Translations under genes and position numbers: made by a program | From: Porphyridium purpureum | Taxonomy: Eukaryota | Reading direction: 5' to 3' | Assembly: GCA_008690995.1 (NCBI GenBank) | Contig: VRMN01000006.1 | Span: forward strand, 620,001 to 684,000 | DNA: 64,000 nt | The notes under the pieces: generated by a model | Database searches by the model: none | What the model was told of the DNA's origin: nothing | Seen by the model: the letters and a program-made list of their open reading frames with translations, nothing else | In this document: piece after piece, positions 2,946 through 61,659 of the stretch | Layout of the letters: each line of letters begins with the position of its first letter | Numbering within the stretch: the stretch's first letter is position 1

Positions 2946-4205
2946 ATGGGGGCAGAAGATGAGGTGGAGACATTTGAACTCGAAGAAGGAGAGGAGCTGC
3001 GTTTCGAGGTGGGCGCATCGGCGTCTGTGGAACTGCAAGTGACCAGCGGGTACGCCGAGGTGTTTGGCGTCGAGCTCGCGCAGAATCGCCGATATGTGTT
3101 TCGTAACGCAAAGCTCGCGCTGTTCACGTGGAAGGGCTGCAGCGTGACGCTCACGGGAGGTACGGAGGTCAGCTACAAGGTCGCCGAGACGCCCATGGCG
3201 ATTTATGTCAACGCGCACTCGGTGCTACAGAGCAAGCGAAAACTCGCCAAGGAGCTGAAGATGAAGGGGCCGCGCTGCATTGTCGTGGGCCCGTCGTCGT
3301 GCGGAAAGACGTCGCTCAGTGCAATTCTGCTGGCATACATGCTGAAAGAGAACCATTCGGCGTTCTTTGTCGAGGCAGATTACTCGGAGGGCGTGTTGGG
3401 AACGCCGGGCTCCATTGGCGCGTGCGCCGTGGAACACATCGATGTCGAGCAAGGCCCGCTCTTTGAGCGCCCGATTTGCTTCTACTACGGTCATTTGGAT
3501 CCTTCGGAGAATACAGAATGTCTCATGCAGCTCTACTCAGTTCTCGGTGCATCGATCGACGCGCTCTTTGGGCAGCATGACGAGCTTGAACGCCGAGGCT
3601 TCGTTGCAAACGGACCAGCAACCACGATCGAAAAAGGGTTTGATGTGCTGAAGCACGCGATCACCGCTCTCAGGATAGACACGGTCCTGGTCATGGACGC
3701 GGAGCGGCTGTATGCGAGCCTGGTGCGCGAATTCAAGACGGACAAGAATGTACAATGCGTGCATGTGCCCAAGTCGGGCGGAGTGGTGACGCGTGAGGAT
3801 GCCTTCATTCGCAAATTCCGCAATGACCGGATTAAGCGGTACTTTTACGGTCCAGAGAACGAGCTGCATCCATTCACATGCGTGCTCGGTTTTGACCAAT
3901 TCAAAGTTCTGCGTGTGGGAGACAGCTATCAGACGCCCGACTCGGCCCTTCCTATCGGTGTTGTGTCCACACTCAACCCGTTAGAGTTGGAAGCGGTCAG
4001 TCCCTCTGCGACGCTTATCCACTCGGTGCTTGGCGTGTCGCAAGCAACGGACGAAGCGGATGTCATGAGCAAGCCGGTGTTTGGCTTTTGCCATGTCACG
4101 AAGGTCGATGTTCCGAAGCGCCAGATGACAGTTTTAGCTCCATCTCCAGGGAAACTGCCGGGCTTTTTCCTCGTGTTGGGCGGGGTGAAGTGGCTCGAGG
4201 GATAG
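2946..4205 (+). CDS. CLP1: mRNA cleavage/polyadenylation factor, polynucleotide 5'-kinase CLP1
   Basis: ELRFEV, GYAEVFGVEL, LFTWKGC, ETPMAIYVNAH, Walker A GPSSCGKT, PKSGGVVTR, SALPIG, LAPSPG. Confidence 0.95.
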   Translation: MGAEDEVETFELEEGEELRFEVGASASVELQVTSGYAEVFGVELAQNRRYVFRNAKLALFTWKGCSVTLTGGTEVSYKVAETPMAIYVNAHSVLQSKRKLAKELKMKGPRCIVVGPSSCGKTSLSAILLAYMLKENHSAFFVEADYSEGVLGTPGSIGACAVEHIDVEQGPLFERPICFYYGHLDPSENTECLMQLYSVLGASIDALFGQHDELERRGFVANGPATTIEKGFDVLKHAITALRIDTVLVMDAERLYASLVREFKTDKNVQCVHVPKSGGVVTREDAFIRKFRNDRIKRYFYGPENELHPFTCVLGFDQFKVLRVGDSYQTPDSALPIGVVSTLNPLELEAVSPSATLIHSVLGVSQATDEADVMSKPVFGFCHVTKVDVPKRQMTVLAPSPGKLPGFFLVLGGVKWLEG

Positions 4206-4515: not shown

Positions 4516-5205
4516 CTACACGGCCGCGCTCGGCACAATTCGAGGGGCCACCTCTTCTTTTGGCTCAAAGATGGTGACTGCATCGGGCATGGGCTTCCTC
4601 GGCCCTTGCTTGCCGGTCGGGTCGTGCGGCATCAAGATCTTGACCTTGAGGCCAATGACTCCCTGTCGCAGAAGCACGTGCCTGACGGCTGTGTCAATAT
4701 AAATCTCCTTTGGATATCCGGTTGAAATCATGTATCCGTCCATGAACTTCATGGTCTTTGCACGCTGCGCGCGCAGCTTTCCAGACACGGACACCTCGCA
4801 GCCCTTCGCGCCCGATTCCATGACAAACCGGAGCACACCGTAGCACGCGCGGCGCACGGCGAGGCCGCTCAGCAACTTGTATCGCAGCGACTCTGCCTGC
4901 GCCATGGCGCACAGCCCTCTGTTCTCCACCTTTTCCGCGAACAGCTCGATCGTGCCGGGCTGGAACCCGAACCTCTTCTGCACCAACGCCGTGAGCTCCC
5001 GAATCCTTCGGCCCTCCGTTCCCGTCACCTTGGGCGTACGCGTCGCGCGGATAATCACCTCCGTGCGCTCCGGCGTCACGCGCACCTCCATGCCAGAATA
5101 CCCATCCTGCGCCAGCTCGCGCGCCAGCAATTCCGACAACTCGCTGTAGAACACGCCGTCCGCGACAAACTTGCGCACCTTGCTCTGCTTACGCACGGTC
5201 GCCAT
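4516..5205 (-). CDS. RPS3: 40S ribosomal protein S3 (uS3)
   Basis: [68 protein letters not shown]. Confidence 0.98.
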
Positions 5206-26873: not shown

Positions 26874-29800
26874 ATGGACGCCTATTTCCGCGTGACGCTG
26901 CCGCGCAGTGCGGCCGGCGGCGTCAAGGATATTGACGATGAGGGCGTGTACCGAGACGAGGAGTTTGAGGAAGCCCAGTTCTTGGACCATGTCGAGCAAG
27001 GAACGCTCCGGGCGGTCTTGACGCAGCAGCGCATCAAGAAGCGCTTCTCAGCGGGCGGCGTGTTTGTGATCACGCTGCTGCTGATGGTCTCGATGCTGGG
27101 ACCCATGCTCCTCGTGCATACATCAATGTCCACGTCGCGCAAGCGCATGCACAGCTCCCATCTGACTGCGAAGCGCCTGTTGGCAACGCATAACAACAGC
27201 AGTCACGTGATGCGCAACGCGATGCTCGCGCGCCAGGGCGGTGGCCCCGAGACGAGCAACATTGAATGGACGCCTTGGGATGGCGCGTACAACAACATAG
27301 CTCACCCTGAGTACGGCGTCGTGGATGCCCGCATCACGCGCCCGTGTCTTCCACGCTACTCGGACGGCGCGTACCAACTGTCCAACCCAGACGGTCCGAA
27401 CCCGCGCACCGTGTCCGAGCTCGTGATGGGCGGCGACACGGGCCACGGCTCGCTCACGAACAAGACCGCGTTTCTCGTCTTTTTTGGGCAGCAGGTGGTC
27501 GAGGAAATTCTGGACGGGCAGGCTTTCCAGTCGGCTGAGCCCTACGTCAACATCCCCGTTCCGGCGTGTGACCCCTTGTACGACCCGGACTGTAAGGGGA
27601 ATTTGTTTATCCCGCTGCCGCGCAATCGCTACGACTTGAGTACGGGCAACGCGCCCGGCGTGCCGCGTGCGCAGCTCAACGAAATCAGTGCTTGGATCGA
27701 TGGCACGCTATTTTACGGACCGTTCAAAGCGTGGGCTGACACACTGCGCGCGCACGACGAGTCGCGACCGGGCCGCTTCGCGTGCTTGGTTGACGAGAAA
27801 TCAGGCGCAGAAAACTGCAATCTTCCGGCACTGAACACGATTGGTCTACCGATTGTGAATCCGCCGCCACCCACGCTGCGTGACGTGCGCTCCGCCGAGC
27901 GCTTTTTCCGGCTGGGAAACCCGCGCACCAACGAAAATCCCATGCTCCTGTCGTTTGCCGTGCTGTGGTTCCGCTACCACAATGTTGTGGCCGACCGTAT
28001 TCACGGACAGTATCCCGAGTACGATGATGAAGAGGTGTTTTTACTGGCGCGCCAGTGGCTCATCGCCGTGTACCAGAAGATTGTCTTTTACGACTGGCTC
28101 CCCGGATTTCTGGGGCTTAATCGGGATGAATTTATGGAGGAGTATCGCTACCGCGGGTATCGATCAGTCGATCCAGCCATTACACAAGAGTTCCAAGTCG
28201 CAGCGATGCGGTTCGGCCACACACTGGTGACGCCCGGAGCGTACCGACGTGACCTACACTCGTGCACCGCGGGTTCGTTCGAATCACTGCGTACGTGCAA
28301 CTCTTACTTCCGCGGCGAAGAAGTGCTGCTAGAAGACGACGGCCCCACGCGAATGCTGCTTGGACTGGCGTCTCAGCTTGCGGAGCGCGAGGACTCGACA
28401 ATCACTCCAGATTTGCGCGGCTTTGTGTTTGGCGTCGCGCTCGACGCTACGCGCCGCGACCTCATGGCCATTAACATCCAGCGTGCGCGCGAGCACGGCG
28501 TGGGTACGTACAACCAGGTGCGCGAATGCTTCGGTCTCCCGCGCGTGGAATCGTTTGACGACATTTCTTCACTCACGGAGAATGAGCTGTTCAACACTTG
28601 CACCGACGCGCAGGGCAATACAGGCGTAAACTGCATGAAGCTTGCCATTGAAGGCCTAAAGACGGCGTACGATAACGACATTGAAAAGTGCGACTTGTGG
28701 CCGTGCGGGCTGCTCGAGGTGAACGTGACGGGCCCGGGCCCGCTATTCCGCGCGATTCTCCTTGACCAGTTTCTCCGCATTCGCGATGGCGACCGCTTCT
28801 GGTTTGAAAATGACAAAGCCGAAGCGCCCATCAAGAAGATCATGACTCCGGCTCAGATCGACGAGATCTGGAACACGACCATTCGCGACGTGATGGTGGA
28901 GGCGCTGGAGCTGGATGACGATGTAGTGCTGCAGGAAAACCCGTTCAAGTATGATTCGTCGGTATGCGAACAGCCCTATCAGCTCAGCGAGTTTAATCTT
29001 GAGGACTGCTCGGCACCGTCGACGTACAACTGGTACCGTGGGAACGTGCCGCGCCGCGCCGCCCCGGCAATGTCGTCGAGTCGGCTGGGTCAGGAAGGAT
29101 GTGAACCGGACTCGCTGCGAAAAATTTTGTTCGGGTCGGAAGATGGGCCCGAGCATGATGACCGCCTGACTTTGGCTTCGCAAGACGATCAGTTGTCCAT
29201 GGAGCAGCGCGCTGCCGCGGCGGGCTGTCCCGTGTATAAGGCGAAAACAAAGCTCGCTCGACTTTTAATCATGCAGCAAGTGATGATGGAGCGCGTGAAG
29301 ACAGGCCTTGTGAAGCTCTCACCCAATGCAGGCTCGGTGCAGCGCTACGTAAATTATCTCAGCACAGATGAGTGCGGTTTCATCACGAACGCTGACTCGC
29401 TCGCGCAGCTGGCGTGGACCATCGCCGGCATCGTGATGTGGCTGATTCTGAACATGGTGCTGGTATACGGCATCGTTCACTGGATCCGACATCGCAAGCA
29501 ACTGCGCACTGCCGGCGGCCTTGCATTCAGCAAGAGTACCAAGCATATCCCGCTGGACATTGAGACAAATGTGAGTGCGCGAGCGTCATTGCGCGTCCAG
29601 GCTGCGTCTGCGAAAAGCATGTCGCGAGGCAAGCCACGACCCACCACGGGGTATGGATGCCTAATTTATCATTCCTTCACGGAGAACTCTAGCTTGAACG
29701 GCGTATCTGTGCAGCTGGGTGAGCCGGACCAGGCGCATTTGTTCTTGTTCGGGACTGACGGAATCGACCGAGGCAGCCTGGAGGACGGGCCACCGACCAG

Positions 29801-32800
29801 CAGTTTCAAGACTGGAAAAGACGTAGGCATGGGCGCGCGCACCAAGACTGAGCGCGCCTCGTGTGTGCCGCTAGAAGTCCGTGAGATTCTTAGCGGCGAC
29901 ATAACGATGATTTCGCCCGGCAACATTGAGGAGTTGCGATTGTTTGACAACTTCATCATGATCAAGTGCAAGATTGGCTCTGCTCGACTTTTTGAGTTTG
30001 AGTCGCCGGGCAAGGCGCGCACGGTAGCTCGAGAGTTGCTCAGTATCAAGGGCCTCAAGGCGCAGGAGGCAAACATGGCGACCTTGGAAGAGCTCGTTGA
30101 GGACTGCATGTCGCGGGCCGAGCGGCTAGATGAAATCAATTGGTTCTTCGAGAAGGTGAAGCGCGATATCCGAATCAAGTGCGAGCAGGATGCGAGCTAC
30201 AAGCGTACCCGCTCGGTCGCGGACGCCGCGAAAGACATCGCGGACAACCAGAGCCCCGACGAAATCCTTGCGGATAACCCAGATCTTGTGCACGATACCG
30301 TACACAAGGTCGCTGACTATAACATGTCGAAGCTCGTGTGGTACACAAACGAAGAACTTAAAAGCGACAGCATTCTCGGGGCCGAGCGCTACGGTGAGCC
30401 AAATTCAATGGGCTCGCCGAGGGAGTTCGCAGGCGCGGCAGCTGCGAGTCCACATCGAAACAAGGGCAAGCGAAGCACGCCCTCCTCACCGCGCCTGACT
30501 GCGGGTGGGTTTATTTCGCGACGTGCGGTTGCCAACGCGCTGAGTGGCGGGCTGTCGAAGAAGGGTGGCGTCACGGGGACGCGTTCGAAGTCCAAATGGG
30601 GCAGGTCCCAAGGACAGCACGGGTCAGAAAGTTCGCAGTTTTGGCGCAACCATTCTCGCCCGGATTACGCTGATGAGGACGATGTTGTTTTCACAAAGCA
30701 TGAGGTTGCAGCGGTGCTCCGCATCCACCCGTCGTCGTTTGTGTTATCGCGCATGTTCTACGAAGGCTCTCACACATTCAGCACGATCATTACGGCACGC
30801 CAGTTCCGCAGGGCTGTAGAAAATTTGGTGCTCGCTGGAGAGTCGCCTGGTCGCTTTTTGGCTGGACTTGCCATTGCACCAGGCGGGAACGATGAAATCG
30901 ACAAGGAATTGTTGATGGATATCGTGCGCGATCTGCAGGGCTCCGGGCTTGGGGCAGGAGGGATGTCCCTGGATGGCGACCAGACGGACGTTTTGGCGGT
31001 GCCGATGAGCCGTGTGGACGAGAAGATAATCTCCAAGTACATGAACGAGACGGACTCCCCAACTCTACCAATGGAACGCTTCGACAAGATGATTGAAGAA
31101 ATGCAGGAGAAGAAGTTGAAGTATCGCGCCGTGGGATGGCAAATGTACTTTAGGCAGACGAGACGGCGTGCGCAAGAAGACATGGCACGCGAAAACATGT
31201 CGAATGTCTCAGTCAAGCTGTACTCCTGGCGCGACAGCTTTGTGGATGTTTGCAAGGACCATCGGCTGGACATCTTCTGGGGTACAGCGTATGTGATCAC
31301 CGTGGCGCTCATCTTTTTGTACACATGGTGGTACTACTACTCGCTCCGGGAAGTGTACGGTTTGCGTGGAATTTTGACAGTTGGACTGTGCGTCACGCGG
31401 TCGTCGGCGTCGGTTGACATGTTTGTGTACAGTATCACGCTGTTGCCCATGTGCCGAAATCTGATTACATTTCTTCGCAGTACACGGCTGCATCAGTACG
31501 TGCCTTTTGATCGAGCATACGAATTTCATGTGATCACCGCGCTCACAGGCGAGTTCTTCACGGCGTTGCACGTCGTGGGACACTGTGTGAACTTTTACAA
31601 CATCACCACGCAGCGTTCAGGCGACTTGACCGGATACTTCCGCGCCGTCAACTGGAACTCAGACTTTGTGCCATCATTTGCATTTTGGATGTACGAGACG
31701 ATTACCGGCATGACGGGCCTCTTGCTTACGTTTGTAATTATCACCATGATGGTTTTCGCGGTCCCTCAGGTACGCTCCGCAAGCTTCCAGTTGTTCTGGG
31801 TGATACACCATGTGTGCTTCACCTTGCTATACACCATGATCGTGCTGCACGGCTCGTACGTTCTCGTGCAGAGGCCCATCTTCCATTTCTTTTTGCTGGG
31901 CCCGCTCATTATCTTCATTTTGGACAAGCTCTATACGTTTGCGCGGGAATCTGAGAAGCTTCAGATTGTGGATATGAAGTTACTGCCCAAAGGCGTGACG
32001 GCCATCTACGTCCGTGTCAGTCCGAGCTTTTCGTACACTTCGGGTCAGTGGGCGCGTCTCAAGCTTCCGGCTCTCGGTACGACTGAGTTCCATCCCATGA
32101 CGATCTCATCCGCGCCGCATGAGAGCTATTTATCCTTCCACGTTGCGGCGGTGGGTCCGTGGACGCGTGCAGTGCGCGAGCTGGCAACCGAGACGCAGGG
32201 CAAGCCCTTGTCACAGATGCCTACGATCCGCATCGATGGCCCGTATGGAGAGGGCCACCAAAACTGGATGCTGTACGACACAGTGCTGCTAGTGGGCGGC
32301 GGGATTGGCTGCACACCATTCGTGTCGGTGCTCAAGGATATCCTGCACCAAGTGCGGATCAAGGCTTTCCGCACCACCAAAGTCGTTGCAGTGTTCATTT
32401 GCAAGAATCTTCAGGACCTTGCGTGGATCACAAATGAGGTGAGCCAGCTCGAGAATAACGCACCAGCCGGATACCTGGAGCTTCTTTTCTTCCAGACCGG
32501 TCAGAAGCGCAGTGGCAAGGAGTCTTCTCTCGATGCGCAGAACTTGGCATTCGAGCAGGCGTTTCAGCGCCACGTCGAGTTCATTTCCCAGATCATGGCC
32601 AATCGCTCGTCGCTTGCGCGTGTCAAAGGTTTTGTGCTGGACGGTCGACCGCAATTTGACGAGTTGCTCCGGGACATCCAGGCGGACCGCAAGGCGAACG
32701 ACGAAATTTTAGAGTCTGGTTCGGGAGCGAGGCAAACTTCAGAGCTTGAGGTTGGCGTCTTTGCGTGCGGTAGTGCCTCCATGACGCTCGACCTCAAGCG

Positions 32801-33665
32801 CGCATGTGTGCGGCGCAATCGCGAGACCTTGCGCGAGATTGCCGACAAGGAGCTCAGTGCCGCGCGCGCTGGAAAAGGCTCGCACAGCTCTGCGGGGGAA
32901 GAAGTCGAAATGTCTATGGACTCGGTGGGAGGGACGCCAAAGCCGACCGGGCTGGGTGGTGTGTCAGGTAATGTCGATCCGAAAATGTCCACCAAGCCGA
33001 ACGGCATGTCTCCTGGCCCACGCGGTGAGCTCACGACATCAGGTAGGTCGAACGGCTTGGGTGCGTCGTCTAAAAGTGCCGAGCTTGCGGCATCGGGCCG
33101 TTCGGACGGATTTGGGCGAGCGGGTGCTGGTGCTAGAGGCCCGAGCGATCCTGCACCGGAGATCAATCCGTTGGGCACTGACCGCGTCTGCACGTCAACG
33201 TCTGGAGCAAGTATGGCCACGAGTCCCACCGCAGGTCCTGCAGGAAAAAGGCGCGCCTCGCAGATTTCCCTGGGGCGCATGTCTGGCATCGAAGGAAGCC
33301 GAGACGTGCAGGGCCAGACCGGAGCGACCGCAGAGGTCAGCGGCTCAGCGCGCCAGAGCTCGACGCGTATGATGTCCAAGATGGCGTCGATGGACACGCA
33401 AGTATTCAAGGACGTGGCCGCGAAAATCACAAGCCGCAAGCCAAAGCGCGTACGCGGAGAGCGACCTGTGTTCTTTGCGTTCTATGGTCAAGTGTTTTCG
33501 TCGGACTCGTCGTTTGACTTTTGGTCGAGGTGGAAGAAAGGGTGGGCGGAGCGGCGTGCGGCCAAGGCGGCCGCGCGCGCCGCCGCGCTCAAGACGGGTG
33601 TTTCCAGGACCAGCAGCACGGAGGACACTGAGCTGGACCTCCCCGAAGCGCTGCGCGAGGCGTGA
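26874..33665 (+). CDS. DUOX: Dual oxidase (heme-peroxidase-like ectodomain, TM, degenerate EF-hand region, ferric-reductase TM domain, FAD/NADPH-binding domain)
   Basis: DGAYNNIAHPEYG, FFGQQVVEEI, WIDGTLFYG, GNPRTNENP, AAMRFGHTLV, INIQRAREHG, QFLRIRDGDRFWFEN. Also LLPMCRNLIT, heme His pairs FHVI..LHVVGH and FWVIHH..LHGS, HPMTISSAP, DGPYGEGHQNW, GGGIGCTPF, VGVFACG. Confidence 0.95.
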   Translation: MDAYFRVTLPRSAAGGVKDIDDEGVYRDEEFEEAQFLDHVEQGTLRAVLTQQRIKKRFSAGGVFVITLLLMVSMLGPMLLVHTSMSTSRKRMHSSHLTAKRLLATHNNSSHVMRNAMLARQGGGPETSNIEWTPWDGAYNNIAHPEYGVVDARITRPCLPRYSDGAYQLSNPDGPNPRTVSELVMGGDTGHGSLTNKTAFLVFFGQQVVEEILDGQAFQSAEPYVNIPVPACDPLYDPDCKGNLFIPLPRNRYDLSTGNAPGVPRAQLNEISAWIDGTLFYGPFKAWADTLRAHDESRPGRFACLVDEKSGAENCNLPALNTIGLPIVNPPPPTLRDVRSAERFFRLGNPRTNENPMLLSFAVLWFRYHNVVADRIHGQYPEYDDEEVFLLARQWLIAVYQKIVFYDWLPGFLGLNRDEFMEEYRYRGYRSVDPAITQEFQVAAMRFGHTLVTPGAYRRDLHSCTAGSFESLRTCNSYFRGEEVLLEDDGPTRMLLGLASQLAEREDSTITPDLRGFVFGVALDATRRDLMAINIQRAREHGVGTYNQVRECFGLPRVESFDDISSLTENELFNTCTDAQGNTGVNCMKLAIEGLKTAYDNDIEKCDLWPCGLLEVNVTGPGPLFRAILLDQFLRIRDGDRFWFENDKAEAPIKKIMTPAQIDEIWNTTIRDVMVEALELDDDVVLQENPFKYDSSVCEQPYQLSEFNLEDCSAPSTYNWYRGNVPRRAAPAMSSSRLGQEGCEPDSLRKILFGSEDGPEHDDRLTLASQDDQLSMEQRAAAAGCPVYKAKTKLARLLIMQQVMMERVKTGLVKLSPNAGSVQRYVNYLSTDECGFITNADSLAQLAWTIAGIVMWLILNMVLVYGIVHWIRHRKQLRTAGGLAFSKSTKHIPLDIETNVSARASLRVQAASAKSMSRGKPRPTTGYGCLIYHSFTENSSLNGVSVQLGEPDQAHLFLFGTDGIDRGSLEDGPPTSSFKTGKDVGMGARTKTERASCVPLEVREILSGDITMISPGNIEELRLFDNFIMIKCKIGSARLFEFESPGKARTVARELLSIKGLKAQEANMATLEELVEDCMSRAERLDEINWFFEKVKRDIRIKCEQDASYKRTRSVADAAKDIADNQSPDEILADNPDLVHDTVHKVADYNMSKLVWYTNEELKSDSILGAERYGEPNSMGSPREFAGAAAASPHRNKGKRSTPSSPRLTAGGFISRRAVANALSGGLSKKGGVTGTRSKSKWGRSQGQHGSESSQFWRNHSRPDYADEDDVVFTKHEVAAVLRIHPSSFVLSRMFYEGSHTFSTIITARQFRRAVENLVLAGESPGRFLAGLAIAPGGNDEIDKELLMDIVRDLQGSGLGAGGMSLDGDQTDVLAVPMSRVDEKIISKYMNETDSPTLPMERFDKMIEEMQEKKLKYRAVGWQMYFRQTRRRAQEDMARENMSNVSVKLYSWRDSFVDVCKDHRLDIFWGTAYVITVALIFLYTWWYYYSLREVYGLRGILTVGLCVTRSSASVDMFVYSITLLPMCRNLITFLRSTRLHQYVPFDRAYEFHVITALTGEFFTALHVVGHCVNFYNITTQRSGDLTGYFRAVNWNSDFVPSFAFWMYETITGMTGLLLTFVIITMMVFAVPQVRSASFQLFWVIHHVCFTLLYTMIVLHGSYVLVQRPIFHFFLLGPLIIFILDKLYTFARESEKLQIVDMKLLPKGVTAIYVRVSPSFSYTSGQWARLKLPALGTTEFHPMTISSAPHESYLSFHVAAVGPWTRAVRELATETQGKPLSQMPTIRIDGPYGEGHQNWMLYDTVLLVGGGIGCTPFVSVLKDILHQVRIKAFRTTKVVAVFICKNLQDLAWITNEVSQLENNAPAGYLELLFFQTGQKRSGKESSLDAQNLAFEQAFQRHVEFISQIMANRSSLARVKGFVLDGRPQFDELLRDIQADRKANDEILESGSGARQTSELEVGVFACGSASMTLDLKRACVRRNRETLREIADKELSAARAGKGSHSSAGEEVEMSMDSVGGTPKPTGLGGVSGNVDPKMSTKPNGMSPGPRGELTTSGRSNGLGASSKSAELAASGRSDGFGRAGAGARGPSDPAPEINPLGTDRVCTSTSGASMATSPTAGPAGKRRASQISLGRMSGIEGSRDVQGQTGATAEVSGSARQSSTRMMSKMASMDTQVFKDVAAKITSRKPKRVRGERPVFFAFYGQVFSSDSSFDFWSRWKKGWAERRAAKAAARAAALKTGVSRTSSTEDTELDLPEALREA

Positions 33666-38102: not shown

Positions 38103-40724
38103 ATGGCGGGACAGGGCGGTCCGTCGGATCGGCTCGTGCATCATTTTACAGAGTATTTGCGGCAGCTGCTGGAGGAGGAAGGGAGTGTGGACGCATGGTT
38201 GGCGGGAGGTGATGATGGCGCTTCGCGTAAGAGGCGGTTCACGGTGAGTTTGGATCGGCTGCGTGCTTTTGATCCAGAGCTCGCGCAGGGGCTGCTCAAG
38301 CAGCCGCTCACGCACTTGGCCCCGTTTGATCAGGCGCTGCAGGATGTCGTCGCAGAGCTGATGCCCGAGCTCAAGTTTCAGGACCGCAGGCTGGCCGACT
38401 TTCGTGTCGGCATCGACGGCGCATTCGGAGGACATAAAGTCGGCCCGCGCACCCTCTCGTCGCAGCTGGTGGGCAACCTGGTCGCAGTCGACGGCATTGT
38501 CACGCGCTGCACCACAGTGAGGCCCAAGCTCGTGCGTTCAGTGCAGTATTGCCCACAAACCAAGACCTTTCACGACCAGTACTACAAGGACGCCGTTAGT
38601 CTGGCCAACTACGTCACGCTATCAAGCGTGATTCCTGTGGGCAGCTCGCTCAAGAACAAGGATTCAGAGGGCAACCCGCTTGAAATGGAGTACGGACTAT
38701 CATGGTTCAGCGACTCGCAACGCATCACGCTGCAAGAAATGCCCGAGTCGTCGCCTCCGGGCCAGCTACCGCGCTCCATTGAGGTTCTAGTCGAAAACGA
38801 TCTCGTCGACGAGTGCAAGCCGGGTGATCGCGTCTCCATTGTGGGCGTGTTCCGCGCGCTCGGCGGCGTGGGCGCAGCGTCCGGCAATGGTATCTTTAAG
38901 ACGGTCGTGGTAGCGAACAATGTGCGCCAGCTCGCCAAGAACTCGGGCACTGGCAAAGCGCTCAAAATCACCGCGAAGGACATTGAAAACATTCGCAAGC
39001 TCGCCGCGTCAGCCAGCGGCATTGACACGCTGGTGCGCTCCATTGCGCCGTCGATTTGTGGCTTTGGCGAGGTGAAGCGCGCACTTCTGCTGCTGCTACT
39101 CGGCGGCGCCGAAAAGAACCTGGAGAGCGGCACGCACTTGCGCGGAGACATCAACATATTGATGGTGGGTGACCCCTCCACAGCCAAGTCACAGCTGCTG
39201 CGCTTTGTGCTCAAAACTGCGCCGCTCGCCATTTCGACCACGGGTCGCGGCTCGTCTGGCGTGGGCCTGACGGCGGCAGTCAGCTCTGACCCGGAGACCG
39301 GAGAGCGCCATCTCGAGGCCGGCGCCATGGTGCTTGCGGATCGCGGCGTGGTGTGCATCGACGAGTTTGACAAGATGAGCGACGAGGACCGCGTCGCCAT
39401 CCACGAGGTGATGGAGCAGCAGACCGTCACCATTGCCAAAGCAGGCATCCACGCGTCGCTTAATGCGCGCTGCTCAGTGGTTGCAGCAGCAAACCCTCTG
39501 TACGGTTCGTACGACCGGGCGCGCAAACCGCACGAAAACATTGCGTTGCCCGACTCGCTGCTATCGCGTTTCGATCTGCTGTTTATTGTGCTCGACCAGA
39601 TCACGCCAGAGAACGACATGCGCGTGGCTGAGCACGTGCTACGCGTGCACCAGTGGCGTGGTAACCAGAGCGCGAACCTGGCCGGCGACGCACAGGAGAG
39701 CATTGCGGAGCTCGAGGCCGCCGCTGCCGTGAGCGCGTCGCAAAACCAGAACCACGACGGCACGTCACCCGTGTACGAGCGTGTTGCGGCACACTTGTAC
39801 TCTGGTTCGAGCGCAGCGCGTGGCAAGCGCACGCTCAGCATCGAGTTCCTGAAAAAGTATATCCAGTACGCCAAAAGCCGCATCAAACCGCAGCTGACGG
39901 CCGAGGCAGCCGAGTTCATATCGGCAGAGTACAGCGAGTTGCGCACGCAGCAACCCAACCTCAGCTTGCCCATCACCGCCAGAAGTCTCGAGACCATCAT
40001 CCGTCTGGCCACAGCTCATGCCAAGGCCCGGCTTAGCGGCACCGTGGAGAAAAAGGACGCCACCGCGGCGTGCGGCATTCTGAAGGCATCGCTGGGCATG
40101 CAGACTGAGCTGCAAAGCGAGGCCAAGGACCTCAAGAAGCGACGCGCGCAGAAGAAGAAGCGCGATCGTGACGCGCTGCTCGCTGCTGCGGGCGACGAGG
40201 GCGACCCGGCCTCTCCGGAAGAGGACGTCGCTGCGCAGGATGATAATAACAAGGTCGATGTCGCCTCCCCCAACAAGCGACCGCGCCCGACAAGAAGGGC
40301 GACTCAGGTCGAAGCACAATTTGGGGAAGACACTGAAGAAGAGGAGGATGAGGAGGATGGAGACGACGATGATGGTGACGAGGGCGCCGAACAGGCGACT
40401 GTCGAAATGGGCACAGAGACCGCGGATCTCAACGAGGCCGAGACGCAGCCGCCGTCCGTGTCGGACCCCATGCACGACGCGGCAGCACAAACCGGGCCGT
40501 CCTTGGACTCGCAGGATTCGATGTCGCTGGCTGATGCCAAGCAGCTGCTCCGATCGCACATCCTGGATCTCATGGGCCGGCATGCGTCGGTTTGCTCCAA
40601 ATCTGAGCTTCGGACGCGCGTTCGCGGCGACCTTCCTTCCGACGCTCTCTTTGAGCGGGCCCTGGAAAGCCTGGTTCAGGAAAACCTGATCCTCGTGCAC
40701 GACGACAGTGTCTTTCGCGTATAA
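38103..40724 (+). CDS. MCM3: DNA replication licensing factor MCM3
   Basis: QEMPESSPPGQLPRS, GDINILMVGDPSTAKSQLLR, IDEFDKM, AIHEVMEQQTVTIAKAGIHASLNARCSV, LLSRFDL, TARSLETIIRLATAHAK. Confidence 0.97.
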   Translation: MAGQGGPSDRLVHHFTEYLRQLLEEEGSVDAWLAGGDDGASRKRRFTVSLDRLRAFDPELAQGLLKQPLTHLAPFDQALQDVVAELMPELKFQDRRLADFRVGIDGAFGGHKVGPRTLSSQLVGNLVAVDGIVTRCTTVRPKLVRSVQYCPQTKTFHDQYYKDAVSLANYVTLSSVIPVGSSLKNKDSEGNPLEMEYGLSWFSDSQRITLQEMPESSPPGQLPRSIEVLVENDLVDECKPGDRVSIVGVFRALGGVGAASGNGIFKTVVVANNVRQLAKNSGTGKALKITAKDIENIRKLAASASGIDTLVRSIAPSICGFGEVKRALLLLLLGGAEKNLESGTHLRGDINILMVGDPSTAKSQLLRFVLKTAPLAISTTGRGSSGVGLTAAVSSDPETGERHLEAGAMVLADRGVVCIDEFDKMSDEDRVAIHEVMEQQTVTIAKAGIHASLNARCSVVAAANPLYGSYDRARKPHENIALPDSLLSRFDLLFIVLDQITPENDMRVAEHVLRVHQWRGNQSANLAGDAQESIAELEAAAAVSASQNQNHDGTSPVYERVAAHLYSGSSAARGKRTLSIEFLKKYIQYAKSRIKPQLTAEAAEFISAEYSELRTQQPNLSLPITARSLETIIRLATAHAKARLSGTVEKKDATAACGILKASLGMQTELQSEAKDLKKRRAQKKKRDRDALLAAAGDEGDPASPEEDVAAQDDNNKVDVASPNKRPRPTRRATQVEAQFGEDTEEEEDEEDGDDDDGDEGAEQATVEMGTETADLNEAETQPPSVSDPMHDAAAQTGPSLDSQDSMSLADAKQLLRSHILDLMGRHASVCSKSELRTRVRGDLPSDALFERALESLVQENLILVHDDSVFRV

Positions 40725-40879
40725 GCGCACGTACATGCTTTCGTGCAGAGCAACAGCAATAAACCATAACAAAAAAAAAACGTGTGCATCACCCCGACCA
40801 GTGGGTCTTGCCCTGATCTCGCGCACCGCTCGTACCACAGCCCACATCTTGAGCTCAACATCACAGCGCGCCCACTTTC

Positions 40880-41089
40880 TCACGAGATTGCGACGTAGTG
40901 GTTTTCCTCGTACAGCTTCTCGAGCTCCTCGCGAATGAGGTCCAATGCCCACGTGTGCACGAGCACGTGCGTTTCGTCCAGGTCGCAAATGATGAAGCGG
41001 TTTGGCGCGTGCTGCTCATCCAGATGACGCAGAAACTGCTTCATCGGCTCATCGCATGTCACCAGCGTGCCATACGTCGCGTTCACCAT
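40880..41089 (-). CDS. TFB5: TFIIH subunit p8 (TFB5/GTF2H5/TTD-A)
   Basis: 69 aa: MVNATYGTLVTCDEPMKQFLRHLDE..FIICDLDETHVLV. Confidence 0.92.
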   Translation of the reverse strand: MVNATYGTLVTCDEPMKQFLRHLDEQHAPNRFIICDLDETHVLVHTWALDLIREELEKLYEENHYVAIS

Positions 41090-41223
41090 GTCCAGGCTCG
41101 CAATGTCCAACGGCCAAACCTCACCCAACCCACCACCACCATTCCCTCTCCTTCTCTCTCTCCCCCTCCCCCTCACCCCGACACTTAAACTTTCTCCGAC
41201 CACCGAAAATACATTAATTACAG

Positions 41224-41231
41224 TATATAAA
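41224..41231 (+). promoter_or_regulatory. TATA box upstream of the permuted tRNA (candidate Pol III upstream promoter; may also serve the divergent TFB5)
   Basis: TATATAAA about 30 nt upstream of the predicted tRNA leader at 41263. Confidence 0.6.
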
Positions 41232-41278
41232 GTTTAATAACTCCTTCCGCAGCACATGCTTTGCATGGTGAACAAGGC

Positions 41279-41372
41279 ATGCCGCGATCCAGGGTTCAAA
41301 TCCCTGTATGCGCTTCTCCTCGAGTACTCGGGGAAGGCGCATGTGGCCAAGTGGTAAGGCGCGGCACTTGTA
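41279..41372 (+). tRNA. Circularly permuted tRNA-Thr(UGU): 3' half 41279-41314, 22-nt spacer, 5' half 41337-41372
   Basis: 5' half: GCGCATG-TG-GCCAAGTGGTAAGGC-G-CGGCA-CT-TGT-A. 3' half: A-TGCCG-CGATC-CAGGG-TTCAAAT-CCCTG-TATGCGC-T. Acceptor, anticodon and T stems all pair when the halves are joined at position 37/38. Confidence 0.92.
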
Positions 41373-41387
41373 CGTTCCGCCATGCGC

Positions 41388-41397
41388 TTTTCTTTTT
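41388..41397 (+). terminator. Pol III T-run terminator of the permuted tRNA
   Basis: TTTTCTTTTT immediately after the trailer sequence. Confidence 0.7.
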
Positions 41398-41653
41398 GTT
41401 GCCGCTGGATATACTCGCCTCTGCTTTCCCCTCTGCTCTCCCCCTTTGTTCCTTCGCGCTTGGATTTATTGTCGGGTAAATGACACGCCGCATGAAGCGC
41501 TGCCCGGTTTCGCGGTCTGAAGTTCATTCATTGTCGCTGCTAAATTTGGCGCAGCTCGTTGGCTTTTTTTCTTTGTTGAGGGGTAAATAAAAAGAAGAAG
41601 CGCGGATCGCAAGGTCAAAGGTAAAGCCAACACAGGTTTTGTAGGTTCGGTAC

Positions 41654-44446
41654 TTAATTCTCCTCGTCGTCGGAACTTGAGCTGGCGAGCGCCTCGCTTT
41701 CAGATGATGACTCAGCTTGGTCGCTGAGTTCCAGCTGTGCGACATGGTCGCTCTCGTCTTCGCTGTCCATGGAAGGAACCGCCGCGATGGCGCCGGCTGG
41801 GCCTTTGGCGTGCAAATCTCCGACGTCTTTTCTGGAAGCGCGCGGCGCGGCACGCATGAGTGCGTCTGTGTCTGCTTCGGCGGCAGTGTCATCATCATGA
41901 ACGTCGTCTTCTTCTGCATAACTGGAATGCGCGCCACCGAGACGCCCGACCAGATCTGCATCCGTTTTGACGCTCGCATCCAAAATTGCGCTGCGCTGCG
42001 CGGTCGCGCGCATTTCGGCCTCGTACCAGCATTCCATGGGCAGCTTTTTCGCCTTACTGACCACTGCAAACTCAGCATTACTGAGAAACACGCGAAGGTT
42101 CTCCTTCTGGCTCGCGCTCTGCTGCGGAGGGGCTGCATTTGTCAAAGCGCCGAAAATAGAGTTCGGTCCTTGCTTTAAAGCAGCACGTGCACGCGTCACG
42201 AGTTCGCTCTGCTCCTCTACTGCACGTATCAAATCCCTCACAAACTCTTTTAGCTCCGCATGCTTGCAATCTTTGGCCAACGGCCGCAGCGCGCGAAGCG
42301 CCGGGTGCGCGAGTTCCGGGAAGGCCGGTGAGCGCGCCATGGTATTCAAGTGTGCACCCAGCAAATACGCGAATCGGTGCACGACCGAACGCGCAAAGAC
42401 AGCCGATTGCTGGTCATCCGCGCTGGCACGAAGAACAAAGCGCCAATCGTATGTATCCCGCAACGCGCTCATACCCTGTTTCCTCTTCTTCGACGTGCGT
42501 TGCTGCTGGTCAGCCGCGCTCAAGGCACGCTTGCGCAGTGAAGCATTCCGATCCAAAAGCGCCACGCAAGACGCAGACAACGGGATGTAGACACCCGTGT
42601 TGGCCTCCAGATCAACCAAGAACCCAATCACATGAAACTGAACGCCGACGTTCCGCGGGCCGCTCGCTGCGCGTACGAGTTCCAGCGAAACTTGTACGTA
42701 CGGGTAAATGAGCGGCCGTAGCTGGTTCTGCAGCGGGAACTCGCACAAAATCGAACCGATCACTCTAAGGATGTTCACCACGTTCCAGCTAAACATCCGC
42801 TGCATCTTGTCCTCCGTGCGATTGTTCTTGGTCTTTTCTGTCGAGTTTTTGGTAGCCAAAGAAGCCGAACTGATTGCGCTTTTGATCTGGACCGCCAGCT
42901 CGCGCACATAGGTGAACACCAGCGCGTAGCTCACTTCCAAGTCAACGCCAAAAACTTGCGTAATACATTTGCACGAAAAAAGCAGCCTTGCGATATTTCG
43001 AGAACTTGCAGCGGCACGCCCAAGCTCCCTTGACGCAACGAAAGAGCGAAACATGCTCTTGGCCACACGCTCTGCGTATAGAGCATCATGCGCCGCAGCA
43101 GCGGAAAGGAGGAAAAGGAACGCTCGCATGGCCGTTGCGTCCGAAACGGCCAGCGTGGCCCACACGCGGCATGCGGACCGAATGCAGCGGAAAGCCAGTT
43201 TGGGAATTGCCTTGAAGAATGGAGTGAGCCGTGCGTAGCTTTGCAGAATCCTGCGAGTCAGACGTGCGTCTGACACTACCTCAAGAAAACGAACCAGGTC
43301 CAGTCCAAAGAACTTGATCACTGGCTCGAACTTGTTCCACTGGACATTTTCCGTTGGATCCACCCCTGAACCTGCCTTTTGAGCTGACGCGCCGCGGCGG
43401 GTTAGCAGCGCTGTTTCAAAGCAGTCCAGCATCTTGAACCACGAGAATGTGACAGCGCGACGATACACTTTCTCGGACGCAAAACGAATTAGCACAGATC
43501 CGCGAGCTCCTGCACGACCGCCCTGCAGCCCCAATTCCATGTCTTCTTCTGCAGAATTTTCCTCTTCCTCACTGCCATCGTCAGTCGACGTACCCGCATC
43601 CTGGTCGTCCGATTCGGATCCATCGTCCTGGCGCCTACCACGCTTCTTGGCCTTCGTCTTGGTTTTGGTCTTGCTTTTACGCTTACCTCCGCCTGCAACC
43701 GACACGCCTCGCTCTGCAATATCCACACCCGCACGAAAGACATGGAGCATGCGTTTGCACGCCTTGTTGAAAACATCTGGGCGGGTCCGCCCACTCGAAA
43801 TTTCCATTTCCAGCTTTTGCAAGTCAGCCATGGTCAACAATGGGACTGGAAGTTGCTCGGATTTAGCTTTTGCATCAGCGAGCCGGGATTGCTTCCGCGC
43901 CGCCTTTCCTTCTTGTGGACCGTCACTATCACTATCTCCATCTCCTTGCGTGCCGTCCAGCTCGCCGTCAGACGACGAAAGATGAAAGTCGAGCAGCTCT
44001 TTGTCATTCTCTTTCAAAAATTCATAAAACTCAGGGTCAGCTTCATGCAGCTGCTGCAGCTGCGCCTCGTGGTCACGCTCGTCCAGGTCGTCGTCGTCAC
44101 TGCCACTGCCGCCACCACCATTTCCTCCCTCGTCCACCATTTTCCCTATCATGCCATCGTTCTTCCCGTTTCGCTTCCGCGAGTTTCCAAGCTCACTTCG
44201 ACTCCGTCTCCCGGGCGCAGCATCCGATCCTGACGCGCGCATCTGTTGCAATTCCCGTGCCTCACTGCCTGTCCCAGCGTCCACTCCAGGCGCCACATTC
44301 CCATCTCCCGGGCGCTTCTGCCGCTGCTGCTGCTGCTGCTGCTGATGCCGCCGCCGCGCTTTCAGCATCAGGCGCGCGCGCGCGCGATCTGTATTCACCA
44401 CCATCACGCCCACAGTCCCTCCCAAACCTCTTCCTCGTTCTCTCAT
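41654..44446 (-). CDS. NOC2: Nucleolar complex protein 2 (NOC2/NOC2L)
   Basis: LQQLHEADPEFYEFLKENDKELLDF, FTYVRELAVQIK, LRPLIYPYVQV, SPAFPEL. Start uncertain (alternative ATGs at 44404 and 44368). Confidence 0.92.
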   Translation of the reverse strand: MRERGRGLGGTVGVMVVNTDRARARLMLKARRRHQQQQQQQRQKRPGDGNVAPGVDAGTGSEARELQQMRASGSDAAPGRRSRSELGNSRKRNGKNDGMIGKMVDEGGNGGGGSGSDDDDLDERDHEAQLQQLHEADPEFYEFLKENDKELLDFHLSSSDGELDGTQGDGDSDSDGPQEGKAARKQSRLADAKAKSEQLPVPLLTMADLQKLEMEISSGRTRPDVFNKACKRMLHVFRAGVDIAERGVSVAGGGKRKSKTKTKTKAKKRGRRQDDGSESDDQDAGTSTDDGSEEEENSAEEDMELGLQGGRAGARGSVLIRFASEKVYRRAVTFSWFKMLDCFETALLTRRGASAQKAGSGVDPTENVQWNKFEPVIKFFGLDLVRFLEVVSDARLTRRILQSYARLTPFFKAIPKLAFRCIRSACRVWATLAVSDATAMRAFLFLLSAAAAHDALYAERVAKSMFRSFVASRELGRAAASSRNIARLLFSCKCITQVFGVDLEVSYALVFTYVRELAVQIKSAISSASLATKNSTEKTKNNRTEDKMQRMFSWNVVNILRVIGSILCEFPLQNQLRPLIYPYVQVSLELVRAASGPRNVGVQFHVIGFLVDLEANTGVYIPLSASCVALLDRNASLRKRALSAADQQQRTSKKRKQGMSALRDTYDWRFVLRASADDQQSAVFARSVVHRFAYLLGAHLNTMARSPAFPELAHPALRALRPLAKDCKHAELKEFVRDLIRAVEEQSELVTRARAALKQGPNSIFGALTNAAPPQQSASQKENLRVFLSNAEFAVVSKAKKLPMECWYEAEMRATAQRSAILDASVKTDADLVGRLGGAHSSYAEEDDVHDDDTAAEADTDALMRAAPRASRKDVGDLHAKGPAGAIAAVPSMDSEDESDHVAQLELSDQAESSSESEALASSSSDDEEN

Positions 44447-60430: not shown

Positions 60431-61659
60431 CCGTGTCTATTCGTGTCCGTGTCCGTGTCCGTGTCCATCCGTGTCCATGTCTATCCGTATCCGTGTCCAT
60501 GTCTGTCCATGTCAACTTCTCTATCCACGTGCGTGTCCATACAAATCTTCACGTGCGTGTCCACACCCATCTGTATCTGTGCGACCGCAGAAATCGCCAC
60601 ACTCTAACGCGGTTCGACGGCTTTGCACTCGACTCCACCGCCACCCCCTCACTTTATTCATGTGCCTCCCACCCACCCACCCACACCCACGTCTATAAAT
60701 GAAATAACAACCCCCCTCCCCTTCGGCTCCTTTCAAACACAAACACACAACCTCCAGTTCGTTGCATCGTCGAAATCCCAACCCGACCCCAACGCCACCC
60801 CACACAGCTGCACTCCATTTTTCACCTTACCGGTTATATACTGATCATGACCATTAAACCATTAAACCATTAAACCATTCAACGCGAGTCGCGGCGAAGG
60901 AGGAACGCATCCATAGTGAAAAGTGGAACAGGTCAAGACGATAGTACTGTGGAGTAGGTACTGTGGATATAGTAGGTACAGTGGACGTAGTGTGGCCGTT
61001 TGGTGGACCAATTTGGGGTTGACAGGAGGAGAACACAAAGGTGGGGCGAATCAAAAAATAGGACGGAAAGGAAGGAAGAAAAACGGGGTTTGTGGGTGAG
61101 AGAGAGAGGAGAGGGGTGGGAGGGGGCGAGGAGAAAGGGAAGGGGAGGGGTGGGGTGGAAGGTGGTGGGGTTGGTGGGGTTGGTGGGGGGGAGGGAGCGA
61201 TGTCGTCCGCTCGGGGAAGACGGCGGCAGGCGGGCGCAGGCGCGCGCGCGTGTGCGCGGTGTCGCCGCCGCCGCCGCAGAAGAGGGTCGTGCTGCTGCAT
61301 GACGAGTCGCATCTGTCGCCGCTGAGCAACGCCGCGCACCAGCGCCCGCTCGACGTCCCGCAGAATGAGCCGTGGCAGTCTGCGCCGGAGCTCGTCGTGG
61401 AGGAGAAGAACGCGTCCAGCGCGTGGCTCAGTCGCGACGACGCGCAGGACGGCGGCGCGCTCGCGCGGCGCGCGTCCACGCTAGGAGGCAAGACGCCGCT
61501 CTTTGGCAGGCTCAGGGCGTCAAGAGCGCGGCGCGCACGCGCTCGGCGCGCAAGCAGCAAAGGCGGCCGAGCCCGGCGGAGGCGCGGGCCGGCGCGGACG
61601 CGAGAGCCGAGCCGCGCGCCGGCCCAAACACAATACCGGCCGCCGAGGAGCTCGCGGCA

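What the first reader, a model, noticed from the sequence alone, without database searches (positions are those of the whole stretch)
41263..41397. Circularly permuted tRNA-Thr(UGU) gene with a BHB-like junction
Seen in sequence: the 3' half (41279-41314: A38, anticodon 3' strand, variable loop, T arm GGGTTCAAATCCC, acceptor 3' strand) lies upstream of the 5' half (41337-41372). Joining them at 37/38 gives a canonical 72-nt cloverleaf. The leader GCATGGTGAA-CAAG-GC pairs with anticodon-loop CTTG and with the trailer GTTCCGCCATGC. This leaves a 3-nt GCA bulge whose second/third boundary is exactly the 3' junction, and a bulge at TAC(G) for the other junction, forming a bulge-helix-bulge-like substrate. 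A TATA box lies upstream and a T-run downstream. Established knowledge: permuted tRNAs mature through a circular intermediate and are known from Cyanidioschyzon merolae and a few other algae and archaea; standard tRNA scans miss them. Inference: this is a functional and probably unannotated gene in this organism.
Basis: partly seen in the sequence, partly recalled or inferred. Interest (0 to 1): 0.9.

Follow-up and report, generated by a model that had tools for sequence, protein, structure and literature searches.

The report
Back-to-front threonine tRNA gene in Porphyridium
A red alga, likely a Porphyridium species, carries a threonine tRNA gene with its back half written before its front half, a layout known from a few other algae but not found reported for this group, and it would explain why a standard scan of the Porphyridium purpureum genome found no threonine tRNA at all.

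Summary
Confirmed. The 3' half (41279-41314) precedes the 5' half (41337-41372); swapped, they give a 72-nt tRNA-Thr(UGU) with all stems paired (ARAGORN). A permuted-tRNA descriptor hits only this site, and 0 of 300 shuffles. The leader and anticodon loop form an exact-register relaxed BHB (3-nt bulge, 4-bp helix, 4-nt bulge), though it is 1.9 kcal/mol above the best predicted fold. TATA and T-run flank it. Neighbouring proteins place the host in or near Porphyridium, not Cyanidioschyzon. A published tRNAscan-SE run on P. purpureum lists 0 Thr among 30 tRNAs. Thr(UGU) is not among the permuted genes catalogued in 2014, and C. merolae keeps its Thr(UGU) unpermuted. Expression and the circular intermediate are not shown: about five mRNA-type reads cross the locus, with no junction. 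The scan has noted permuted tRNAs on other DNA (C. merolae, a diatom, phages) but not here. Verdict: new member of a known kind (type II), in a red algal order with no report that I could find.

The parts
41224..41232 (+). TATA box, likely the upstream Pol III promoter, 47-55 nt before the 3' half
   Evidence: Sequence; 1 of 13 TATA[AT]A[AT] sites in the window; of 32 looser TATA sites only the two overlapping ones here give a tRNA after circularisation. Could also serve the divergent TFB5 gene.
41263..41278 (+). Paired part of the leader: outer helix strand (41263-41272), central-helix strand (41273-41276), first two bases of the 3' splice bulge (41277-41278)
   Evidence: Pair list; leader-trailer duplex -15.0 kcal/mol, reached by 201 of 20,000 shuffles
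41279..41314 (+). 3' half of tRNA-Thr(UGU), positions 38-73
   Evidence: ARAGORN on swapped halves; only 5-of-5-pair T arm among 6 candidates in the window; aligns to the 3' half of 8 conventional tRNA-Thr
41315..41336 (+). 22-nt intervening sequence; predicted hairpin (-9.5 kcal/mol) that continues the acceptor stem
41337..41372 (+). 5' half of tRNA-Thr(UGU), positions 1-37, anticodon TGT at 41369-41371
   Evidence: (Rfam tRNA 23.3 bits, below gathering 29)
41373..41385 (+). Paired part of the trailer: end of the 4-nt 5' splice bulge (41373-41374) and outer helix strand (41375-41385)
   Evidence: reads of another strain differ at the unpaired 41374
41388..41397 (+). T4-C-T5 run, likely Pol III terminator; the only runs of 4 or more T between 41200 and 41560
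40880..41089 (-). Divergent neighbour TFB5 (context only)
   Evidence: Pfam Tfb5 E 4.8e-24
41654..44446 (-). Convergent neighbour NOC2 (context only)
   Evidence: Pfam Noc2 E 6.5e-47

Best explanation
This is a type II (junction 37/38) circularly permuted tRNA-Thr(UGU) gene of a red alga likely of the genus Porphyridium, predicted to be transcribed as one RNA and to mature through a circular intermediate into a working tRNA. Inferred pathway, by analogy with C. merolae: RNA polymerase III starts downstream of the TATA box and stops in the T run; the precursor folds into a cloverleaf closed at the acceptor stem by the 22-nt spacer hairpin and open at the anticodon, where leader and trailer form an hBH motif; the tRNA splicing endonuclease cuts at 41278/41279 and 41372/41373; ligation gives a 94-nt circle; RNase P (41336/41337) and RNase Z (41314/41315) remove the spacer; CCA is added. 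The product would read ACA and, by wobble, ACG. Shown: layout, pairings, motifs. Inferred: transcription, every cut, charging.
For: Swapped halves give a complete 72-nt tRNA-Thr; 0 of 300 shuffles give a permuted descriptor hit; precursor folds with z -4.3, 0 of 200 shuffles as good; exact-register 4-bp central helix and 3-nt bulge; only the 37/38 junction gives Y32-U33-R37-A38 (1 of 8), and A37-A38 is invariant in 8 of 8 conventional tRNA-Thr aligned (A37 was fixed by my search pattern, A38 was not); TATA, T run, 22-nt spacer (range 7-74 in C. merolae) and absence of encoded CCA match the published description (PMC3978253); P. purpureum has 0 Thr tRNAs among 30 found by tRNAscan-SE (PMC10496412 Tables S4d, S6c), while 12 hand-picked ORFs of the window use 386 Thr codons, 72 of them ACA; the three strain differences near the gene (41374, 41402, 41415) all fall outside the halves, and the one at 41374 raises the predicted share of the central helix from about 0.05 to about 0.48.
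Against: No junction-spanning, circular or mature reads: two raw RNA-seq runs (about 20-25% read) put only about five reads over the locus, running on past the T run, with no joints; such libraries are poorly suited to 75-nt RNAs. ViennaRNA prefers a shifted register; the hBH form is 1.9 kcal/mol above the minimum and its central helix has pair probability about 0.05. The 5' bulge has 4 nt, not 3. Flank pairing is only modestly beyond chance (34 of 1,500 flank shuffles fold as well). No homologous permuted gene was found: all 17 pattern hits in metagenome and viral contigs are ordinary tRNA-Thr genes behind another tRNA, so there is no covariation evidence. The 3' half alone scores only E 0.53 against a Thr profile (4th of 11 hits). 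The window is not formally shown to be the genome of the published table, and tRNAscan-SE also misses genes with atypical introns. Strain coverage of the halves is 1-4 reads, so 'no differences in the halves' is weak.
Confidence: 0.87

Rival explanations
1. Functional permuted gene, but matured without a circle: RNase P and RNase Z cut out the spacer first, the halves stay base-paired, and splicing at 37/38 comes last.
For: The top half (acceptor plus T arm) is fully formed in the linear precursor, while the hBH register is a minority fold, so end processing could come first.
Against: Circular intermediates were detected for permuted tRNAs of both red and green algae (PMC3978253); the spacer hairpin continues the acceptor helix, including a predicted U73 pair, which may slow end processing (inference).
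Confidence: 0.06
2. Non-functional relic of a tandem duplication of an intron-containing tRNA-Thr gene whose outer halves were lost; the working Thr(UGU) lies elsewhere.
For: No expression evidence; whole genome not searchable; such duplication is the proposed origin of permuted genes (PMC3978253).
Against: All 20 stem pairs and the conserved loop bases are intact; TATA, terminator and exact-register helix are kept; no remnant or second copy of either half (12-mers) elsewhere in the window; no Thr tRNA in the published P. purpureum scan.
Confidence: 0.05
3. Assembly artefact or chance juxtaposition of tRNA-like hairpins.
Against: 20 runs from 9 studies hold half or more of the sampled words of 40700-41900, 3 of them flagged as a possible source; the few RNA reads cross spacer, 5' half and trailer with no joint; leader and trailer pair with each other and with the anticodon, which a mis-join would not create; 0 of 300 shuffles.
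Confidence: 0.02

Closest known systems
Type II (37/38) circularly permuted tRNA genes of Cyanidioschyzon merolae, especially tRNA-Thr(CGU) and tRNA-Thr(AGU) (Soma et al. 2007, not held; as tabulated in PMC3978253 Table 1)
   Same: 3' half before 5' half, junction 37/38, spacer 22 nt (31 and 24 nt there), no extra intron, upstream TATA, downstream T run, relaxed BHB at the junction, no encoded CCA.
   Different: Different host: nearest named proteins are from Porphyridiales, and the Cyanidiococcus CLP1 is only 31% identical. Different isoacceptor: Thr(UGU) is absent from the 2014 table, and tRNAscan-SE finds C. merolae and C. yangmingshanensis Thr(UGU) as ordinary-order genes of 104 and 103 nt (an intron is inferred from the length).
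Type II permuted tRNAs of Mamiellophyceae (Ostreococcus, Micromonas), the Bigelowiella nucleomorph (PMC3978253) and Auxenochlorella (PMC12633428, passages)
   Same: Same junction and hBH-type motif suited to a eukaryotic splicing endonuclease.
   Different: Green lineage; the 2014 table lists Ser, Leu, Cys, Arg, Asn and iMet there, no Thr; upstream AT-rich element described as ambiguous, whereas here it is a clear TATA box.
Ordinary eukaryote-type tRNA-Thr genes (loci L001-L017, tRNA arrays of metagenome and giant-virus contigs)
   Same: Same 72-nt body plan, G1-C72, A37-A38, variable-loop GATC, T loop; U73 in 5 of the 7 aligned rows that include position 73. The shared D arm was demanded by my search pattern and is no evidence.
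   Different: Halves in normal order, no BHB flanks.

Membership tests
Circularly permuted tRNA genes, type II | 3' half encoded upstream of the 5' half on the same strand, separated by a short intervening sequence | tested here: met
   spacer 22 nt
Circularly permuted tRNA genes, type II | Swapped halves form a canonical cloverleaf with conserved tRNA bases, joined at 37/38 | tested here: met
   ARAGORN tRNA-Thr(tgt), 72 nt; 37/38 is the only one of 8 junctions with Y32-U33-R37-A38
Circularly permuted tRNA genes, type II | Leader and trailer can form a BHB or relaxed hBH motif at the junction | tested here: met
   3-nt bulge, 4 Watson-Crick pairs, 4-nt bulge, outer helix; relaxed, not strict, and a minority fold in ViennaRNA (pair probability about 0.05)
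Circularly permuted tRNA genes, type II | Upstream TATA-like element and downstream T run, none between the halves | tested here: met
   41224-41232 and 41388-41397; sequence match only, promoter use untested
Circularly permuted tRNA genes, type II | Transcribed and matured through a circular intermediate | tested here: inconclusive
   About five reads, no joints, in 150-nt cDNA libraries
Circularly permuted tRNA genes, type II | Mature tRNA is CCA-tailed and aminoacylated | not testable with these tools
   Needs tRNA-seq or acid-urea northern
Circularly permuted tRNA genes, type II | Sole gene for its anticodon in the genome (usual, not required) | tested here: inconclusive
   No genome held; published P. 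purpureum scan has no Thr tRNA, but identity with this window's genome is inferred and that scan misses atypical introns
Strict archaeal-type hBHBh' motif | Two 3-nt bulges separated by a 4-bp helix | tested here: not met
   The bulge at the 5' cut has 4 nt (41371-41374)
Split (trans-spliced) tRNA genes | Halves at separate loci, each with its own promoter | tested here: not met
   Halves 22 nt apart, no TATA or T run between them

The most novel reading that the evidence does not exclude
Porphyridium hides a whole set of permuted tRNA genes (its published scan lacks Thr, Asn, Asp, His, Cys and Trp altogether), so permutation is not a quirk of hot-spring Cyanidiophyceae but occurs on both sides of the deepest red algal split; and because C. 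merolae permutes Thr(AGU) and Thr(CGU) but not Thr(UGU), while this alga permutes Thr(UGU), tRNA genes flip between intron-containing and permuted form repeatedly and independently, a process that can be dissected in a transformable mesophilic alga.
Probability: 0.5. Interest if true: 0.65.

Novelty: new member of a known kind. Interest (0 to 1): 0.5.

Why it matters
Among red algae, permuted tRNAs are reported for C. merolae, while Chondrus crispus is stated to lack them (PMC13578239, passages). A case in Porphyridiales widens the distribution and bears on the question that review calls unresolved: ancestral retention or repeated invention. It supplies a missing threonine decoder for a biotechnologically used alga whose published tRNA set is incomplete, which affects codon-usage and tRNA-adaptation analyses built on that set. 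The mechanism itself is not new.

Tried and rejected
ARAGORN and Rfam in genomic order: nothing at threshold; lowering the ARAGORN score to 85% gave 64 calls across the window, treated as noise. Whole-genome search for a conventional Thr(UGU) or further permuted genes: no genome held. Pattern scans for related permuted Thr genes: 15 metagenome and 2 viral loci, all 17 ordinary tRNA-Thr genes in tandem arrays (two are cut at a contig end, two viral loci repeat metagenome ones); the pattern was tied to one D-arm sequence and these collections hold few eukaryotes, so this is no evidence of absence. A first pattern had a spacing slip and matched nothing. RNA reads for the circular junction: none, depth too low. 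A comparison with DNA contigs of other strains was not obtained, so strain conservation and a second copy stay open. Other permuted genes in the window: none by the type II descriptor or by circularising the DNA behind 32 TATA sites. Blind circularisation at this locus yields many false anticodons (Leu, Ala, Tyr, Gln and others), so ARAGORN alone does not fix the junction; loop consensus and bulge register do. C. merolae as host: rejected. Sequence-only Thr profile: 5' half E 1.4e-07 (partly circular, the D arm was selected for), 3' half E 0.53. Literature: 'Porphyridium'+'permuted'+'tRNA' gave 2 papers, neither on this (listing; passages of one); 'permuted'+'tRNA genes'+'Rhodophyta'+'Galdieria' 2 papers (listing); 'permuted tRNA' 74 papers, 40 listed, and 46 since 2015, 40 listed; listings showed no nuclear tRNA study of Porphyridium other than PMC10496412. 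PMC6811547 has 0 occurrences of 'tRNA' in its main text; the 2013 genome paper was not held under the DOI I tried. Subscription papers, bioRxiv supplements and tRNA databases were not seen.

Full report
Observation. The window holds, on the + strand, a tRNA 3' half at 41279-41314, a 22-nt spacer, and a tRNA 5' half at 41337-41372. In genomic order ARAGORN finds no tRNA in the 64 kb and Rfam nothing at gathering score; a permissive Rfam search of 40500-42200 gives a 23.3-bit tRNA hit starting at 41337. With the halves swapped in a script, ARAGORN reports tRNA-Thr(tgt), 72 nt, with 7 acceptor pairs (one G-U), 3 D pairs, 5 anticodon pairs and 5 T pairs. A descriptor for 37/38-permuted class I tRNAs finds this one site on both strands and none in 300 dinucleotide-preserving shuffles; I wrote it after seeing the locus, from general tRNA rules. 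The stretch 41255-41397 folds at -61.8 kcal/mol, z -4.3, better than all 200 shuffles.

Junction. Eight junctions keep the 5-bp anticodon stem and a 7-nt loop; only 37/38 gives Y32, U33, purine 37 and A38 together. At that junction leader bases 41273-41276 pair with tRNA positions 32-35 in four Watson-Crick pairs, 41277-41279 form a 3-nt bulge with the junction after its second base, and U36, A37 and two trailer bases form a 4-nt bulge, followed by an outer helix of 3 plus 7 pairs. This is the relaxed hBH/BHL type described for nuclear tRNAs (PMC3728597, passages), not a strict BHB. Random window 16-mers give the four pairs in register in 0.6% of 200,000 draws (2.9% with G-U); the leader-trailer duplex is matched by 201 of 20,000 shuffles, the whole fold by 34 of 1,500 flank shuffles. 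Against: ViennaRNA's best fold uses a shifted register; the hBH form lies 1.9 kcal/mol higher, with pair probability about 0.05 for the central helix. With the base read at 41374 in another strain that probability is about 0.48. In C. merolae the 37/38 motifs are also reported as the least stable (PMC3978253).

Signals and setting. TATATAAAG lies at 41224-41232 and T4-C-T5 at 41388-41397, the only T runs of four or more between 41200 and 41560. Of 32 TATA-like sites in the window only the two overlapping ones here give any tRNA when the downstream DNA is circularised. The gene sits in non-coding DNA between divergent TFB5 (40880-41089, minus) and convergent NOC2 (41654-44446, minus), with an MCM gene further left. 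The TATA box could also serve TFB5. The spacer is predicted to form a hairpin that continues the acceptor helix.

Host. The long, apparently intron-poor ORFs are eukaryotic. CLP1 (2946-4205) is closest to Timspurckia oligopyrenoides (49%), then Gracilariopsis (42%), with Cyanidiococcus at 31% (78 hits). RPS3 (4516-5205) is closest to an entry with taxid 2792, Porphyridium aerugineum, at 84% (best 120 of 121 listed). Window GC is 0.52-0.61 per 2 kb against 0.559 given for P. purpureum. So the host is likely a Porphyridium other than P. aerugineum, P. purpureum being the obvious candidate; this is inference, and no genome is held for the window. The stretch 40700-41900 is held by 20 of 24 listed runs, from 9 studies, 3 flagged as a possible source.

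Need for the gene. In PMC10496412 (passages and supplements 7 part 1 and 9 read) tRNAscan-SE 2.0.9 lists 30 genes for P. purpureum and none for Thr, Asn, Asp, His, Cys or Trp. The same gap in C. merolae led to the discovery of permuted genes (PMC3978253). Twelve ORFs I picked in the window use 386 Thr codons: ACG 178, ACC 93, ACA 72, ACT 43. No 12-mer of either half recurs in the window. That scan also misses genes with atypical introns, so it does not prove this is the only Thr(UGU).

Expression. Two raw RNA-seq runs (about 20% and 25% read) and two contig sets were laid on 40900-41800. TFB5 and NOC2 are covered. About four reads in one run and one in the other cross the tRNA locus, on the strand expected for the tRNA if the TFB5 reads set the library orientation, but they run past the T run, show no joint, and similar counter-strand reads occur in NOC2. 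Three differences (41374, 41402, 41415) lie outside the halves, at depth too low to weigh. Expression, circle and charging are therefore untested. DNA of other strains was not compared.

Relatives. A pattern for a T loop followed by a Thr-type D arm and anticodon found 15 metagenome and 2 viral loci; all 17 are ordinary tRNA-Thr genes behind another tRNA. Eight distinct ones align with the two halves end to end, the 5' half over columns 2-37 and the 3' half over 38-73, with G1, A38, the variable-loop GATC, the T loop and C72 shared; the D arm and anticodon loop up to A37 were fixed by the pattern. A sequence profile of the eight scores the 5' half at E 1.4e-07 and the 3' half at only E 0.53, fourth of 11 hits. 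No permuted homologue, hence no covariation test.

Mechanism. By analogy with PMC3978253 (parts 1-4 of 11 and passages read): TATA-driven Pol III transcription, since A and B boxes are inverted; endonuclease cuts at 41278/41279 and 41372/41373; ligation to a 94-nt circle; RNase P and RNase Z remove the spacer; CCA is added. The join would create the G35-U36-A37 context that carries t6A37 and directs m3C32 in yeast tRNA-Thr (PMC10275265, passages). All enzymatic steps are inferred. I put this at 0.87, a non-circular order at 0.06, a relic at 0.05, an artefact at 0.02.

Known and new. The 2014 table lists permuted genes of C. merolae, four prasinophytes, the Bigelowiella nucleomorph and Thermofilum; the only Thr entries are C. 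merolae Thr(CGU) and Thr(AGU), both type II. Later additions seen: Auxenochlorella (passages). A 2026 review names C. merolae as the red alga with permuted genes, says Chondrus lacks them and has 0 occurrences of 'Porphyridium' (passages); PlantRNA 2.0 and PMC13437025 likewise have 0 in their main text. C. merolae and C. yangmingshanensis Thr(UGU) are found by tRNAscan-SE in normal order. My searches found no report for Porphyridium; Soma 2007, Maruyama 2010, the 2013 genome paper, preprint supplements and tRNA databases were not seen. The scan's own notes hold permuted tRNAs from other DNA but nothing on this sequence or genus; they are unchecked leads.

Verdict. Real feature, correctly read. 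New member of a known kind, in a new host order and with a new isoacceptor. Interest 0.5.

Noticed in passing
window 26874-33665 (+): A 2263-aa ORF joins an animal haem peroxidase domain to ferric reductase, FAD- and NAD-binding domains, a dual-oxidase-like architecture in a unicellular red alga.
   Followed up: partly
window 2946-4205 (+): CLP1 gene (Pfam CLP1_N, CLP1_P, Clp1). CLP1 is linked to tRNA splicing in animals (recalled); it lies 37 kb from the permuted gene, probably by coincidence.
   Followed up: partly
window 41315-41336: The spacer holds a perfect 10-nt palindrome (41322-41331) and is predicted to extend the acceptor stem by two pairs including U73; this could affect where RNase P cuts.
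   Followed up: partly
PMC10496412 Tables S4d and S6c: The published P. purpureum tRNA set also lacks Asn, Asp, His, Cys and Trp, and many listed genes are 100-220 nt long; more disrupted or permuted genes are to be expected.
   Followed up: no
L005 and L013/L017, just upstream of the tRNA-Thr: ARAGORN calls a tRNA-Gly with the rare anticodon ACC in AT-rich contigs, one of them a giant-virus bin.
   Followed up: no
L002, L004, L006, L007, L009, L015, just upstream of tRNA-Thr(AGT): An intron-containing tRNA called Gln or Glu abuts tRNA-Thr(AGT) with a 2-nt gap in AT-rich marine contigs.
   Followed up: no
window about 60849-60880: Four tandem copies of an 8-nt unit just right of a minus-strand TATA site at 60840; no tRNA found there.
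   Followed up: no
window 41140-41180: Pyrimidine-rich tract between TFB5 and the TATA box; it attracts unrelated low-complexity reads.
   Followed up: no
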